A stretch of 64,000 nt of DNA from Mustelus asterias (Eukaryota): assembly GCF_964213995.1 (NCBI RefSeq), contig NW_027590890.1:1-64000 (forward strand). The letters run 5' to 3'. Position 1 is the stretch's first letter. Each line of letters begins with the position of its first letter. The translations under genes were made by a program, and so were the position numbers. This document shows, in pieces, positions 39,509-48,545 of the stretch. Under the pieces are notes generated by a model, which searched no databases, was not told the DNA's origin, and worked only from the letters and a program-made list of their open reading frames with translations.

Positions 39509-40764
39509 CTAGAGACAGAATGAAGCCATTAACAGACTGGGACACACTCTCAAAACTAACAGCAGAGACCTTCAGCACCGAGTGTTTCAGAACCATCCCC
39601 AGTACAAACAGATCCCTGGTTAATTCTAGTCCTGGAGGGATGTGGGAGTTTAGACACCGATAATCACACACACACCAGGTCACCCCACAGCTCCTTGCAC
39701 ACACACACTGCCCCACAATGTGATCGATACATGCTTTCCAATAGAGATAACTGGACACTGAGCAGCAACAGCGCCCCCTCTTCACTCCCCCTTAAACCCA
39801 AACAGCCCACTACAATAGAGCAAGAACTTCATTCTAATGTCCGGTGGAAAATCTCGGGATTCGGTGGAACATCCGGCGCTGCAACATTGACATGTCCGCC
39901 CTGAGCGAGACACGATGGGCAGGAGGAGGCCAACTTAAAGACCAAGGTGGTGGATACACCTTCTTCCAAAAGAAGACCGTCGTCTCTACAGTGTTGGCTT
40001 TGCCATAAAAAACAAATTGGTCAAAACGTCTCAATGAACCCACCCCTCCCCCCCTTGCAGGGGGAGCAAACAGCTCATGACCCTACGGCTCACCCTGCCC
40101 CAGAAACAGCTCATCACAGCCGTCTGTGCCAACACCCCAACCCGAGACTTAACGGACAAGACAAAAGAAACAGTCCACTCCAGCCTTGACCAATCGCTGT
40201 CCCACATCCCAAAGGGAGACAAGCTGGTTCTCTTCAGTGATGTCAATGCTCGAGTTGGGAGGGGAACAAGCCTTTAGAAAGGTGTGTTCGGCAGGGAAGA
40301 CAAACGCCACCTTCAAGAAAGGAGACGGGTCGGACTGTGGACATAACAGAGGGATTTTCCTACACTCTGCCATGGGAAAGGTCATCGCAACAATACTCCT
40401 CAACGATTCCTCCCAGTGGCTGTAAAGCTCCTCCCTGACTCTCAGTGTGGCTTTGCCTGTTAACAGACACAATGGACATGATCTTCAGCGCGCGGCAAAT
40501 CCAAGTAAAGTGCAGGGAGCAGCATCAATCTCCGTACATGGCCTTCTTCGATCTCACAAAGGCTTTCGATTCTGTCAACCGTGAGGGATTGTGGAACATC
40601 CTCCTCAAACCCGGCTTCCCACAGAAATTCATCACCATTCTCCACCTGCTCCACCATGACATGCAAACGGTGACCCTCACCAGTGGAACCACCACACGCC
40701 CAATACGTGCGCAAACTGGGATCAAACAGGGCTGCATCACTGCACCAACATCTTCTCATTTTCC

Positions 40765-43700
40765 TGTGGTAAACCACTGTTAAGCTTATTGCCTGTGTGT
40801 GTGACATGCCTGGACATGCCCCTGCCGGCCCTGCCTGGGACTCCTCCCCCCCTGGTCCAGGTATAAAGGTGACTGCTTCCCACCCCCTGCCTCAGTCGCT
40901 GGACCAGTTCATCAGCATGGGTGTGCTCCAAGTCTTTTGCTAATAAAAGCCTATTTGTTCTAGCATACAAACTAATCTTTGCTTGATTGATAGTGCATCA
41001 ATTTTATTCGCAATAAGTTTTGGGATGGAGCAGATACTAAAACCCGATAGATTAGAATTGGATCCTCAAGCCGTAGGAGCCTCGAACAGCTTCGATCACT
41101 GGCTGCGATGTTTCAAAACTTTCCTCACCGCCTCAGCCTCCGTCGTCCGGACCGAAACCGACAAGCTCCACGTGCTCCACGCCCGGGTAAGCGATCAAGT
41201 ATTCTCGATGATTAGAGACACTGAAACTTACGAGGATGCAATCAAACTTTTAAAAGGCCAGTACAACAAACAGACTAATGTAATCTACGCCAGACATCTT
41301 CTGGCTACTCGCAGACAACAGCCAGGAGAATTGGGGGACCAATTCCTGCGTGCGTTTCGAGCACTTGGCAGGGCCTGCAACTGCAAGGCCGTAACAGCCG
41401 CCCAAAACACTGAGGACTTAATCAGAGATGCCTATGTCACGGGTATCAGGTCAAACTATATCCGACAACGACTGCTGGAACAGGGTGGGCTGGACCTCCA
41501 AAAGACTGTAGCGCTTGCCGACTCGTTAGAGGTGGCCTTCCGTAATCTCGAGGCCTACACCCCGACCACGGGGGCGCATCGTGGACACCGCGGTCGCCGC
41601 CACCTCTGTACTCGGGAGGGCCGAAGGCCTACGCCACGCCACGTCCCACCAATGACCCGACCGCTGCGGCAGTCTCTGGAGGCCTGAAGTGCTACTTCTG
41701 CGGCCTGGGGAAGCACCCCCGACAACGCTGCCCGGCGAAGGATGCGATCTGCTCCGGGTGTGGAAAGAAGGGCCATTACGCGAAGGTATGCAGGGCGAAG
41801 TCGACCTCCAAGCCCAGTAGCGCCGCCTGCGACCCGCCATCTTGGACGCCGTCAGCCGCGTGTGAGCCATGCGGGCCACCATCTTGGACGCCGTCAGCCG
41901 CGTGTGAGCCATGCGGGCCGCCATCTTGGACGCCTTCAGCCGCGTGTGAGCCATGCGGGCCGCCATCTTGGACGCCTTCAGCCACGTGTGAGCCATGCGG
42001 GCCGCCATCTTGGACGCCTTCAGCCACGTGTGAGCCATGCGGGCCGCCATCTTGGACGCCTTAAGCTGCGTGTGAGCCGTGCGGGCCGCCATCTTGGACG
42101 CCTTCAGCCACGTCGCAAAATCCAATGGTGGCTTCAGTTACCCTGGACCAATCCAGGCCTCACCAACTCGCCAGGTCCATGGTGGACATCGAGGTAAATG
42201 GTCGCACTACAAACTGTTTATTTGACTGTGGGAGTACAGAGAGCTTTATTCACCCTAACACAGAGTCGCTACGCCCTTTACTGCCAGTGAAGCAAACGAT
42301 CTCCATGGCTTCAAAGTCCCACTCGGTGGATGTCCTCGGGTACTGCGTGGCGACCCTGACTGTACGAGGCACAGGCTTCTGGAACAGGGTGGGCTGGATC
42401 TACAAAAGACTGTAGCGCTTGCCGACTCGTTAGAGGTGGCCTTCCGTAATCTCGAGGCCGACACCCCCGACCACGGGGGCGCATCGTGGACGATGGTGGT
42501 CCAAAAAGATTTCCTGTGTCACCTTAAGAGCGTCACCATGGAGTATAACGGGCCTTTTCCCCCACTCTCTGTTTGCAATCACCAGTTCTTAGATCGCCCA
42601 CCGCGCTCCACCTGCAGCCTCTCGACCCTTAAAGTCGCCCCTCCCTCACTGTTTGAAAATCTCACCCCCGACTGCAAGCCCATCGCCACCAAGAGCAGAC
42701 GGTACAGTGCTGGAGACAGGGCTTTTATCAGGTCCGAAGTACAACGGCTCCTAGGGGAGGGGATCATCGAGGCCAGTACCAGCCCCTGGAGAGCCCAAGT
42801 AGCAGTTGTTAAGACTGGGGAGAAACATCGCTTGGTCATTGACTACAGCCAGACCATTAACCGCTACACGCAGCTGGACGCGTACCCCCTTCCCCGCATA
42901 TCTGACATGGTTAATCAGATTGCGCAATATCGGGTGTTCTCCACCATTGACTTAAAATCTGCGTACCACCAGCTCCCTATCCGCCCGGAAGACCGCCAAT
43001 ATACTGCCTTCGAGGTGGATGGCCACCTCTATCACTTCCTTAGGGTCCCCTTCGGCGTCACCAACGGGGTCTCGGTTTTCCAGCGTGAGATGGACCGAAT
43101 GGTAGACCAGAACGGGCTGCGGGCCACCTTCCCGTACCTGGATAACGTCACCATCTGCGGCCATGATCAGCAGGACCACGACGCCAACCTCCACAAATTC
43201 CTCCACACTGCCACACTCCTAAATCTGACCTATAATAAGGAGAAGTGCGTATTCTGCACTCGCCGCCTCGCCATCCTTGGTTGTGTTGTGGAAAACGGGG
43301 TCATCGGTCCCGATCCCGACCGCATGTGTCCCCTCCTGGAACTTCCCCTCCCCACCAGCCTCAAAACACTGAGGAGATGCCTGGGCTTCTTCTCGTATTA
43401 CGCCCAGTGGGTCTCCAATTATGCGGATAAAGCCCGTCCGCTCATCAAATCCACCTCTTTTCCCCTGACGGCAGAGGCCTGCCTGGCCTTCGACCGCATC
43501 AAAGCGGATATCGCGAAGGCCACGATGCACGCTGTAGACGAATCCATCCCGTTCCAGGTGGAGAGCGATGCATCTGACTTCACCCTAGCCGCCACCCTTA
43601 ACAAGGCGGGCAGACCCGTGGCCTCCTTCTCACAAACCCTCCAAGGCCCTGAAATTCGACACTCCTCTGTCGAGAAAAAGGCCCAAGCCACAGTGGAAGC

Positions 43701-45338
43701 TGTACGGCACTGGCGCCACTATTTAGCTGGTAAACGATTCACCCTACTCACGGACCAACGGTCAGTTGCATTCATGTTTAACAACACGCAGCAGGGCAAG
43801 ATCAAAACTGATAAAATATTGAGGTGGAGAATCGAGCTTTCCACCTACAATTACGACATCTAATACTGGCCCGGGAAGCTCAATGAACCCCCAGACGCCC
43901 TGTCCCGGGGAATATGTGCCAGCGCACAAATAGACCAATTGCAGACTCTCCACAACGACCTCTGCCACCCGGGGGTCACCAGGTTTTTTCACTTCATTAA
44001 AGCCCGTAACCTGCCCTACTCCATTGAGGAAGTCAGGTCTATAACCAGACACTGCCAGGCCTGCACAGAGTGCAAGCCGCACTTCTATCGGCCAGACAGA
44101 GCACACCTCATAAAGGCCACCCGCCCTTTTGAACGCCTAAGCGTCGACTTCAAGGGCCCCCTCCCCTCTTCTGACCGTAACATATACTTCCTCAACGTCA
44201 TTGACGAATATTCACGTTTCCCCTTCGCTATTCCCTGCCCGGATATGACCTCAGCCACGGTCGTCAGGGCCCTGCACAGCCTCTTCACCCTGTTTGGTTT
44301 CCCGAGCTATATCCATAGCGACCGGGGATCCTCCTTTGTGAGTGGTGAGCTGCGACAGTACCTGCTCTCCAAAGGCATAGCCTTGAGTAGGACCACCAGC
44401 TACAACCCCAGGGGGAACGGACAGGTAGAGAGGGAGAACGCGACAGTCTGGAAGGCCGTTTTACTAGCTCTGAGATCTAAAGGTCTTCCAGTCACCCGCT
44501 GGCAAGAGGTCCTCCCTGATGCACTACACGCGATTAGATCATTCCTTTGCACAGCTACCAATGCTACCCCTCACGAAAGAATGTTTTTTTTCCCCAGGAA
44601 GTCCTCCTCGGGGACCTCACTACCGTCGTGGCTGACGTCCCCAGGCCCTGTCCTGTTCCGGAAGCACATGAGGACCCATAAGTCGGACCCCCTGGTCGAA
44701 AGGGTCCAGCTCCTCCATGCCAACCCCCAATACGCCTATTTGGCGTACCCCGACGGGCGGGAGGACACGGTCTCCATTTGAGACCTGGCACCCGCAGGTG
44801 CCCCAGGGACCACGACGACCCACAACCCCACACCCCCAACCCCCGTATACAGCACGCCTGAGCCCCAGGAGCCGCCATCACGCACCCGACAATCGGAAGG
44901 GACTACAGACGACTCGAGTGACTGCGGCCTGGCGCCTGAACCAAGACCGCAGCACCGGAACCGACACCACAACCGGCACAACGGCGGTCGCGGCGTCAGA
45001 TCAAGCCCCCAGAGAGACTGAATTTGTAGAATTGTAATTCTGTAAGTATCCAACCACCTCACCCCCGCCGGACTCTTTTTTAAAAGCAGGGGGTGAATGT
45101 GGTAAACCACTGTTAGCTTATTGCGTGTGTGTGTGTGTGTGTGTGTGTGACATGCCTGGACATGCCCCTGCCGGCCCTGCCTGAGACTCCTCCCCCCACC
45201 CTGTCCAGGTATAAAGGTGACTGCTCCCCACCCCCTGCCTCAGTCTCTGGACCAGTTCATCAGCATGGGTGTGCTCCAAGTCTTTTGCGAATAAAAGCCT
45301 GCATACAAACTAGTCTTTGTTTGATTGATAGTGCATCA
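40765..45338 (+). mobile_element. Full-length Gypsy (Mag-like) LTR retrotransposon, defective
   Basis: LTRs 40765-41000 and 45098-45338 (TGTGG...GCATCA), TSD TTTCC/CTTCC, PPT at ~45082-45097. Gag has two Cys/His knuckles; protease LFDCGS; RT-RNaseH ORF 42436-43863; integrase D,D,E to 44781. Frameshift at ~41560 and stop at 43861. Confidence 0.95.
41833..42112 (+). repeat. 42-bp tandem repeat (~6.6 copies) in the gag-protease linker
   Basis: Unit GCCGCCATCTTGGACGCCTTCAGCC(A/G)CGTGTGAGCCATGCGG. Confidence 0.92.
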
Positions 45339-46646
45339 CTTCCTCACAGCAACACTCCATCCCATCACCTTGAAGCTTCCCGCTGGAGTGGAGTGAAACA
45401 GGAAACTGTTCAAACTCCGACGCCTCTGGTGTGTGCAGAGCCAAGACCAAGAGGCCGAGCTACAAACCATCGTCAACACATTCACTGAGGCATATTAGAG
45501 AATGGACCTCAGACTAAACATCTGGAAAACACAGGTTCTCTACCAGCCCGCTCTTCCTACATTAAACTGCCCCCAACCCCCAACCATCAGGATCCACGGT
45601 GAGCCCCTGGACAATGTGGATCATTTCCCACCTCCTCCGGCACGAGCAGACATTGACAATGAAATCCAGCATCAACTCCAATGTGCCAGTGCAGTCTTCG
45701 GACACCTGAGCAACACAGTGTTCGAAGCCTGAGACCTCCAATCCAGCTCATGGTTACAGTGCACCCTCCTGTATGCATCAGAAACATGGACAATGTACAG
45801 CAGACACCTCAAATCCCTGGAGAGATATCACCAACGTTGCCTCTGCAAAACCACTGGCAGGATAGGCGTATCAATGTGAGCATGGCCTCCCAGGCTGTTA
45901 TCCCCAGTATTCAGGCATCAGTCACACTAACCAGCTGCGACGGGCAGGTCACATTGTCCACACGCCCGACACAAGACTGCCGAAACTAGTGCTCTGAGCT
46001 CTGCAATGGTAAGTGATCATGAGGGCACGCAGAGAAAAAGCTGCAAGGACACTCTGAAAACCTCCCTAAATAAATGCTACATCCCCATCGACATGTGTGA
46101 ATCACTTGTCTTAGAATGCACAAACTGGAGATGAAGCATCCGCAAAGGCACCAGTCACCTCGAGCGTCACTGAGTAGAGCCACGCAGAGGCCAAGCGTAA
46201 ACAGCGGAAAGAGAGCGCAGAATCCAGAGCGTCCCACCCACCCGCCCATCTCATCAAACACCAGCTGCCAAACCTGTGGCAGAGTCTGCGGCTCCAGGAT
46301 TGGACTGTTCAGCCAACTGCAGAACCCACCTCCCTGGAGTAGAAGCAACTCATCCTCGACCCTGAGGGACTGTCATAGAAGGAGAAGATGAGTGAACCAG
46401 TTGTGGTTTTACAACAATCCAATAGCTTCATGGTCACTTTTATTGGGACCAACTTTATATTTCCAGATTTTTATTTAATAAACTGAATTTAAATTCTGAA
46501 AGTGTGATGGTGGGATTTGAACTCACATTCTCGGGATTATTAGACCAGGCCTCCAGATTACGGGTCTCGTAACATAACCACTGCACAACTGAACCCATAA
46601 AATCAGAGATTAAATACAGAAACATACTGAAACAGAAACCTCTCAC

Positions 46647-46991
46647 CTGTTACAGAGAGATAGACGAGATCAAATTGCTCCCAATAATATCCTGCACTCG
46701 TCCTCTTGTAAATCTGACACTCGTACTCGCTCTGGTCTGACTCCCTGAGGTCCGAGAGCAGAACTGACCAGTTTCCTTGTTCCAGTTGATCTTTGAACAG
46801 CTTTGTTCTGTTTCTGAACCGTGGATCTTGTTGTGTCAAATCATCGTTTCCATTGACCACTCTGTGTAAGATATCACCCTTGGTAGTTCCCCAGATTCCC
46901 TGTAAATCTGAGATGGTAACATTCCCTTTGTAGGTACAGGGCAGCACAACCTGCTCCCCAAGGAACCCAGAAACTGGGACAGGCGAGTCAC
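46647..46991 (-). CDS. B7/butyrophilin-type IgV exon 2
   Basis: 345 nt, phase 1-1. DSPVPVSGFLGEQVVLPC...W...QDPRFRNRTKLFKDQLEQGNWSVLLSDLRESDQSEYEC..., with canonical C, W and D-x-x-x-Y-x-C. Confidence 0.92.
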
Positions 46992-47312
46992 CTGGAAAAG
47001 ATTGAAAGTATTTATAAATGGATAGAACCTCCTTGTTGAACTCCGTATCTGAGGGACAGGACGGTGAGACTCAGAAACAGAAATAACAATTCTGGGTAGT
47101 TGAAGGACCAGTTACAGGGAACAGTGACCCGCACCACTCACTCTCACACAATCATTCTTTGGTAAAATATCACACAGTATTTCAAACCTTCCAATGTTAC
47201 TCGCTGTCTATCTAGTGAAACAACTGCTGAAATGTTCAAAAGACTCGAAATAATTTTAATAATACAGTCACTGCATCATAAATGTGGAATATCTGAAATA
47301 GAAACCTCTCAC

Positions 47313-47657
47313 CTGTTACAAAGAGATCGACTGAATCAACTTTCTCCCAATGAATTTGCTTATCAATCCTCTTGTAAATCTGACACTCGTACTCGCTCTG
47401 GTCTGACTCCCTGAGGTCCGAGAGCAGAACTGACCAGTTTCCTTGTTCCAGTTGATCTCTGAACAGCTTTGTTCTGTTTCTGAACCGTGGGTCTTGTTCC
47501 CTCAAATCATCGTTTCCATTGACAAATTTGTGCAAAAATTTATGTTTGGGTGTCCCCCAGATTACCAGTAAATCTGAGACTGGGACATTCCCGTTGTAGG
47601 TACAGGGCAGCACAACCTGCTCCCCAAGGAACCCAGAAACTGGGAAATGTGAGTCAC
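47313..47657 (-). CDS. B7/butyrophilin-type IgV exon 1
   Basis: 345 nt, phase 1-1. DSHFPVSGFLGEQVVLPC...W...SDQSEYECQIYKRIDKQIHWEKVDSVDLFVT, flanked by ttttccag| and |gtgaga. Confidence 0.92.
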
Positions 47658-48545
47658 CTGGAAAAGATTGAAAGTATTTATCCACAGATATAACCTCCCT
47701 GCTGGTACATTACATCCCAAGCTTCACATGGTTACACTGCCATGCTTGATTTACAAGAAGCACTGATCAGTACCTCACTGCTTTCATTTGTGTGGGAAGG
47801 TTAAAGCTCAGGCATTGAGGGCCTTCAACTAAACCCAGCTTGTGCTGGATATTTGTATATTTTAAAAATGGACACCAGACAGTGAAGATTGCTGAAAATT
47901 CACAACCTGCCACGGACAGGAATGGCTACAGGGGATTTCTCGAGGGGGGCAATGGAACATTCCTATCTGCTTCCAGATACGTTACTGATAAAAAGCATCC
48001 GAAATCTGAGTGACAAAGCAAGTTTTTCATCTCAAAGTATGTGGGTGCTAATTTCCTGGACAGACCAGTATCCCGTTTTCCTCTTGGAAGAAGGTGTTCT
48101 CCCATTATGCCTGTCAGTCAGTGTGCTGAGAATTAGCAACTGGGTGTTTGCCACATAAACTAGAAACAGGAGTAGACCATTCGGCCCTTCGAGCCTGCTC
48201 CGTCATTCGTTATGATCATGGCTTATCATTGAATTCAAAATCCTGATCCCCCCCCTTTCCCCCCAAATAGCCCCAAGAACTATATCTAATTACTTCACGA
48301 AATCACACAACGTTTTGGCCTCAACTACTTTCTGTAGTATGAATTTCACATTCACCACCCTCTGGGTGAAGAAATTTCTCCTCACCTCAGCTCTAAAAAG
48401 GTTTACCCCTTATCCTCAAACTATGAGTTTGAGGATAAGTTTTGGAGAAAGGCAGAGGTGTGACTGGTGACAGGATTTTTGGGGTAAGATTTAATTTAAA
48501 GTACTTTTTCGCGGGTGTTATTTATTTATTTAATTAATTAAAAAT

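What the first reader, a model, noticed from the sequence alone, without database searches (positions are those of the whole stretch)
40937..41013. Gypsy element lacks a tRNA PBS; the post-LTR 12-mer pairs with its own LTR poly(A) signal
Seen: the 5' LTR is followed by A-TTTTATTCGCAA (41002-41013), not a TGG-type PBS. This is the exact reverse complement of TTGCGAATAAAA in the 3' LTR (45285-45296) and an 11/12 match to the 5' LTR copy (40937-40948). Known: Tf1/sushi elements self-prime by pairing their PBS with LTR RNA, and HIV-1 occludes AAUAAA in a hairpin. Inference: this may be tRNA-independent priming in a Mag-like lineage, and/or a fold that hides AAUAAA only at the 5' LTR to prevent premature polyadenylation.
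Basis: partly seen in the sequence, partly recalled or inferred. Interest (0 to 1): 0.7.

Follow-up and report, generated by a model that had tools for sequence, protein, structure and literature searches.

The report
Self-priming Gypsy clade using poly(A) signal
This decayed jumping gene and dozens of related families have no tRNA docking site: the spot where DNA copying must start pairs with a piece of the element's own end-repeat that usually carries the poly(A) signal, so the group likely starts copying itself with its own RNA.

Summary
Observation confirmed and generalised. The element is a dead 4.6-kb Ty3/Gypsy retrotransposon (LTRs 40765-41000 and 45098-45338) in a cartilaginous-fish genome. 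One base (A) after the 5' LTR, a non-TGG 12-mer pairs with a site in its own LTR. The pairing holds and co-varies across relatives: 41 of 48 elements with both LTRs, and 146 of 178 5' junctions (36 Gag clusters, 45 different 12-mers) match their own LTR at 11 or 12 of 12; shuffles give about 8. The helix starts exactly at LTR+2 (+1 pairs in 1 of 36 clusters) and ends before R-C-C. Other Gypsy clades of the same genome keep TGG sites. tRNA priming is therefore unlikely and self-priming likely (about 0.8). Unlike Tf1, the partner is predicted to lie about 40-55 nt inside R. It overlaps A[AT]TAAA in 31 of 36 clusters but not in five, so poly(A) masking looks secondary. Mag membership is untested. 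No transcript ends or primers were mapped. The scan noted this clade before on other DNA.

The parts
40760..40764 (.). 5' target-site duplication (4 of 5 identical to 45339-45343)
   Evidence: 5-bp TSDs in family copies
40765..41000 (+). 5' LTR, 236 bp, TG..CA
40862..40897 (+). TATA box (40862) and Inr-like TCAGT, predicted start at about 40894 (predicted, not mapped)
   Evidence: same spacing in other G000 families
40935..40948 (+). LTR arm (candidate self-primer 3' end), containing AATAAA at 40942-40947; one mismatch at 40941 in this copy
40949..40951 (+). conserved R-C-C right after the arm; predicted cut point 40948/40949 and start of a second hairpin
41001..41001 (+). single unpaired A between LTR end and primer site
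   Evidence: A in 41 of 41 and 145 of 146
41002..41015 (+). primer-binding-site position, complementary to own LTR arm, no TGG
41025..41800 (+). gag with two CCHC knuckles; frame broken near 41560
41786..42163 (+). 42-bp tandem repeat (7 units) between gag knuckles and protease
42811..43848 (+). RT (motif YLDN at 43135-43146) and RNase H; stop at 43861-43863
43864..44781 (+). integrase (rve core), no chromodomain hit
45082..45097 (+). polypurine tract and spacer before the 3' LTR
   Evidence: conserved
45098..45338 (+). 3' LTR, 241 bp; arm 45283-45296, AATAAA 45290-45295; 10-nt deletion after the arm

Best explanation
The sequence just after the 5' LTR pairs with a site in the element's own LTR, in a fixed register that co-varies across its clade, and this helix likely primes minus-strand DNA synthesis in place of a tRNA. 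Shown by sequence: no TGG site; a 12-18-bp helix from LTR+2 to a site ending before R-C-C; a different sequence in each family, matched to its own LTR. Inferred steps: the transcript starts about 40-55 nt upstream of the arm (TATA/Inr prediction, ray/shark families only); the leader folds back; the element's RNase H cuts at arm|RCC, as described for Tf1; the freed 3' end, opposite the single unpaired A, primes copying of U5 and the short piece of R behind the cut. Because the arm usually holds the poly(A) hexamer, the same helix would also hide the 5' signal while the 3' copy stays open, a likely side benefit rather than the root cause.
For: Co-variation: 41 of 48 paired-LTR elements match at 11 or more of 12, all with +1 = A; 96 of 108 G000 and 50 of 70 metagenome junctions, against a shuffle mean of about 8 and no shuffle reaching 12. 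In 36 Gag clusters, positions +8 to +13 pair 5.9 of 6 with the own arm and 2.8 with other clusters' arms; most columns show 3-4 Watson-Crick pair types. Positions not used for selection: +1 pairs in 1 of 36, +14 in 31, +15 in 25, +16 in 22, a sharp edge where a primer's 3' end must sit. The hexamer variant itself is compensated (ATTAAA with TTTAAT). Seven elements of other Gypsy clades in G000 have TGG within 5 nt of the LTR end and self-matches of 5-8 of 12. Second hairpin from RCC: pairing 0.64 against 0.30 in shuffles, higher in 27 of 36. Precedent: Tf1's first 11 bases pair with the PBS and RNase H cuts between 11 and 12 (PMC7175516, passages).
Against: No primer, cut site, start site or poly(A) site was observed. 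The start-site prediction rests on motifs seen only in G000 families; most metagenome elements show no TATA, so their arm could be the very 5' end, as in Tf1. A cut at arm|RCC leaves only a short R piece for strand transfer (inferred). Clusters are not fully independent (several look like decayed copies of one family), and representatives were chosen for 11 or more of 12, so +2 to +13 are high by construction. 20 of 70 metagenome and 12 of 108 G000 junctions scored 10 or less; most look decayed or truncated, but L150, L158, L174 and L175 show no arm. Co-variation could arise partly by copying the primer into the PBS, which supports self-priming but not this cut geometry.
Confidence: 0.62

Rival explanations
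1. Self-priming, but by another copy of the arm: the 3' R copy of the same or a co-packaged RNA, or short LTR-only transcripts acting in trans, trimmed to end at the arm.
For: The 3' LTR arm is as complementary as the 5' one (in this copy better). It would leave all of R for strand transfer (inferred). The 3' arm is predicted to be open.
Against: The 5' arm is only 24-72 nt from the primer site and would fold first; the conserved hairpin at RCC stacks on the local helix in many predicted folds.
Confidence: 0.2
2. The helix exists to hide the 5' poly(A) signal, and priming uses some other, unidentified RNA or protein.
For: A[AT]TAAA lies in the arm in 31 of 36 clusters; the hexamer is unpaired 0.07 with and 0.54 without the post-LTR arm.
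Against: Five clusters (L121, L148, L155, L181, L200) keep the helix without the hexamer, and L121 has ATTAAA in the loop. Masking needs no nucleotide-exact start at +2, and no other primer site is left: the ATG can follow within 16-18 nt of the LTR end.
Confidence: 0.1
3. A host tRNA, tRNA half or other small RNA primes, and the LTR match is incidental.
For: tRNA halves prime some copia lineages (PMC6317226, passages). The tRNA set tested here was incomplete.
Against: 45 different 12-mers each match their own LTR. In 49 G000 tRNA-like sequences of 11 anticodon labels the longest exact match to six G000 12-mers was 6 nt.
Confidence: 0.03
4. The inverted repeat is a by-product without a role in priming (for example repeated template switching, or a DNA or packaging structure).
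For: Copies with mismatched arms exist, this one included.
Against: Register, +1 A and RCC persist across proteins only 54-62% identical in RT; mismatches concentrate in older, decayed copies.
Confidence: 0.05

Closest known systems
Tf1/Tf2 (S. pombe), Tj1 (S. japonicus) and the Tf1/sushi chromoviruses
   Same: PBS position complementary to the element's own LTR RNA, no tRNA; Ty3/gypsy domain order; Tf1 needs an RNase H cut and added RNA structure (PMC7175516, PMC4600332, passages; the primary Tf1 papers were not held).
   Different: [quoted passage not shown] No chromodomain in 120 homologs, two CCHC knuckles, mostly YxDN RT.
Plant Tcn1 (gypsy) and TAR/Houba/Osr-1 (copia) lineages
   Same: Self-priming predicted from sequence, for 12% of surveyed plant elements (PMC6317226, passages).
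   Different: Plant lineages, chromovirus or copia; the passages seen mention no poly(A) overlap.
Mag lineage (A/B/C clades, Cigr-1)
   Same: Short LTRs, compact single ORF, two CCHC knuckles (Mag traits recalled); Cigr-1 is listed under Mag and as a small clade in tunicates and molluscs (PMC6238403, passages and supplement rows).
   Different: G000 elements with Mag-type RT motifs (label recalled) keep a TGG site and are 26-30% identical in RT-RH; sister grouping has SH-aLRT 90 in a quick tree.
HIV-1 poly(A) hairpin (recalled, no call)
   Same: AAUAAA held in a helix.
   Different: That hairpin lies within R and occurs at both ends; here the partner lies outside the LTR, at the primer site, so only the 5' copy can pair locally.

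Membership tests
Ty3/Gypsy LTR retrotransposons | TG..CA LTRs, TSD, PPT, gag then PR-RT-RH-IN | tested here: met
   best PDB match Ty3 RT, E 3e-46
Tf1/sushi self-priming group | PBS position complementary to own LTR, no tRNA PBS | tested here: met
Tf1/sushi self-priming group | primer is the extreme 5' end of the transcript | tested here: inconclusive
   motifs put the start about 50-55 nt before the arm's end in G000 families; RNA contigs gave no ends
Tf1/sushi self-priming group | RNase H cut of the RNA duplex makes the primer | not testable with these tools
   needs biochemistry
Tf1/sushi chromoviruses | chromodomain at the integrase C-terminus | tested here: not met
   no chromo family on the window's integrase or among the Pfam lists of 120 homologs
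Mag lineage | two CCHC knuckles in Gag (trait recalled) | tested here: met
   80 of 86 homologs over 1130 aa
Mag lineage | RT-RH-IN groups with named Mag, SURL or Cigr-1 references | tested here: inconclusive
   no named reference available; own clade with support 100, sister to unnamed TGG-primed G000 elements at 90 (quick tree)
tRNA-primed LTR elements | TGG-led PBS matching a tRNA 3' end | tested here: not met
   the two TGG counts are mis-trimmed rows running into the ATG
half-tRNA-primed elements | PBS matching an internal tRNA segment | tested here: inconclusive
   at most 6 nt in a partial set of 11 anticodon labels; family-specific co-variation argues against

The most novel reading that the evidence does not exclude
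A widespread non-chromovirus animal Gypsy clade evolved self-priming apart from Tf1/sushi and uses one RNA switch twice: the helix hides the 5' poly(A) signal so full-length RNA is made, and is then cut at a three-way junction to release a capped primer of about 55 nt, extended by an RT that mostly carries YxDN in place of YxDD.
Probability: 0.3. Interest if true: 0.8.

Novelty: new variant of a known kind. Interest (0 to 1): 0.6.

Why it matters
Self-priming has been shown in fission-yeast Tf1 and inferred for its chromovirus relatives and some plant lineages. A second, abundant animal clade would make tRNA-free priming a repeated solution, place these elements out of reach of tRNA-fragment silencing aimed at the PBS (inferred), explain why PBS-based annotation would miss them, and give a precise, testable cut site. 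A primer inside R that carries the poly(A) signal would link 3'-end choice to the start of reverse transcription.

Tried and rejected
RNA ends: no RNA holder listed with raw reads; four contig runs gave no start or end. A search for retroposed copies ending in poly(A) behind the arm found none in G000. Viral contigs held no relative. Inheritance within the window's family: arm and PBS variants are linked (8 of 13 against 3 of 43; Fisher p about 1e-4, where the last cell was entered as 39 instead of 40), but the site is a CpG and discordant copies could be new mutations, so copying versus selection and 5' versus 3' primer stay open. A suspected return to a TGG site in L135 was rejected: its arm pairs with its 3' LTR end; L141 also has a 14-bp arm at its contig end. 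YxDN is not tied to the helix: 3 YLDD elements have full arms. The first tRNA run included a spurious 1371-nt intron call and was redone. One fold used wrong coordinates for L003 and was redone. Saci2/lennie were considered and dropped, as lennie has a tRNA-Leu PBS (PMC4558846, passages). Clade naming through supplements of PMC6238403 and PMC8556966 failed: no YLDN hits; FASTA files and some PDFs could not be read. Five Tf1 papers were not held. The careful tree did not finish; the quick tree is cited.

Full report
Observation. The coordinates are right. 41002-41013 is the exact reverse complement of 45285-45296 and matches 40937-40948 at 11 of 12; 2000 resampled LTRs never gave more than 9. 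The LTRs are 40765-41000 and 45098-45338, TG..CA, with seven substitutions and several indels between them, one A before the 12-mer, a polypurine tract and a 5-bp target duplication matching 4 of 5. Pfam finds RT, RNase H and integrase in Gypsy order; the best solved relative is Ty3 RT. This copy is dead: gag frame break near 41560, a duplicated gag piece in pol, stops after RNase H and in integrase. The nearest named proteins are from rays and catsharks, then Trichuris, a sea anemone and a tunicate, so the host is inferred to be a cartilaginous fish.

The family. Of the 30 best copies, 22 carry the same 12-mer and 21 the same LTR site; the perfect helix is usually 14 bp. Gag searches in G000 (30 loci each of 150 matches) found sister families whose post-LTR sequence differs yet pairs with their own LTR, including one with ATTAAA opposite TTTAAT. 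A Gag alignment gave 80 metagenome loci. Their hosts are unnamed; a quick tree puts them beside named nematode, anemone and tunicate proteins, in one clade with the window (support 100), so the invertebrate range of the pairing is inferred, not shown.

Tests. With the LTR end set by the two LTRs alone (48 of 112 elements had a pair), 41 match at 11 or more of 12 and all 41 have A at +1. Of the seven misses L121, L126, L137, L208 and L234 look like boundary errors, L130 has a deletion and L150 no arm. A scan of 5' junctions gave 96 of 108 in G000 and 50 of 70 in metagenomes, with shuffles averaging 8, reaching 11 in five loci and never 12 (seven metagenome loci matching only deep in Gag were left out, three had too little upstream DNA). 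The 146 passing loci fall into 36 Gag clusters, not all independent. Positions +8 to +13 pair 5.9 of 6 with the own arm and 2.8 with other arms. Outside the selected 12-mer, +1 pairs in 1 of 36 and +14 to +16 in 31, 25 and 22. The arm is followed by R-C-C in 133 of 146, and these bases tend to open a second hairpin (0.64 against 0.30). Seven elements of other Gypsy clades in G000 have TGG sites and self-matches of 5-8. A partial host tRNA set (49 sequences, 11 anticodon labels) matched at most 6 nt.

Mechanism. Shown: the place where the primer must bind is complementary to the element's own LTR, with an exact edge at +2, and no tRNA site exists. Inferred: the leader folds back, RNase H cuts at arm|RCC, and the freed end primes, as reviews describe for Tf1 (PMC7175516, PMC4600332; passages). 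In G000 families a TATA box at -78 to -87 and an Inr-like motif at -51 to -55 from the arm's end recur, predicting a primer of about 55 nt rather than Tf1's 11; family B also has a TATA-like motif at -33, and most metagenome elements have none, so this is tentative. The arm holds A[AT]TAAA in 31 of 36 clusters, and folding predicts the hexamer closed at the 5' end and more open without the post-LTR arm (0.07 against 0.54). Five clusters keep the helix without the hexamer, one with ATTAAA in the loop, so masking is likely a side benefit. Odds: cut 5'-R primer 0.62, 3'-R or trans self-primer 0.2, masking only 0.1, other 0.08.

Against and open. No start site, poly(A) site, primer or cut was observed. 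Inheritance patterns within the family could not separate the models. 32 of 178 scored junctions fell at 10 or below. The clade could not be named: two CCHC knuckles fit Mag (trait recalled; 80 of 86 long homologs), but RT-RH is only 26-30% identical to TGG-primed elements with Mag-type motifs, and there is no chromodomain. Cigr-1 is a recalled lead only.

Literature. Ten full-text searches returned no paper describing self-priming in a non-chromovirus animal Gypsy clade or its overlap with the poly(A) signal. I saw passages of PMC3601003, PMC6317226, PMC7175516, PMC4600332, PMC4558846, PMC12471100, PMC6238403, PMC2774666, PMC554778, PMC2864245, PMC5006619 and PMC7472051; PMC8556966 gave no hits for the terms; the rest only as listings. 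They place self-priming in Tf1/sushi chromoviruses and plant Tcn1 and TAR lineages. Subscription papers, the primary Tf1 and sushi papers, Repbase and GyDB entries and unreadable FASTA supplements were not seen and may already note it. Six earlier notes of this scan reached the same reading on other genomes; they came after my reading was set and are not independent support.

Verdict. Real, clade-wide and probably self-priming; a new variant of a known kind. Interest 0.6.

Noticed in passing
window 43135-43146: RT catalytic motif is YLDN, aligned to Ty3's YLDD; 93 of 120 homologs have YxDN. PMC554778 (passage) notes YVDN in C. elegans Cer7-12 and calls its activity untested.
   Followed up: partly
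window 41786-42163: Seven 42-bp repeats encoding a Cys/Pro-rich unit between the Gag knuckles and the protease.
   Followed up: no
window 42359-42491: A duplicate of gag 41455-41586 sits inside the pol region.
   Followed up: no
window 40300-40764 and from 45339: The element interrupts an older RT-coding repeat, probably a LINE (RVT_1, E 9e-10).
   Followed up: partly
window 46627-47666: A 666-bp-spaced duplication whose ORF (46603-47070) looks like an immunoglobulin V-type exon (label by eye).
   Followed up: no
L148, L155, L200, L121, L181: Relatives whose paired arm has no A[AT]TAAA; useful natural controls for priming versus masking.
   Followed up: partly
L291-L297, L308, L309; L298-L303: G000 holds two other Gypsy clades with TGG primer sites, and retrovirus-like elements with a YVDD motif.
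   Followed up: partly
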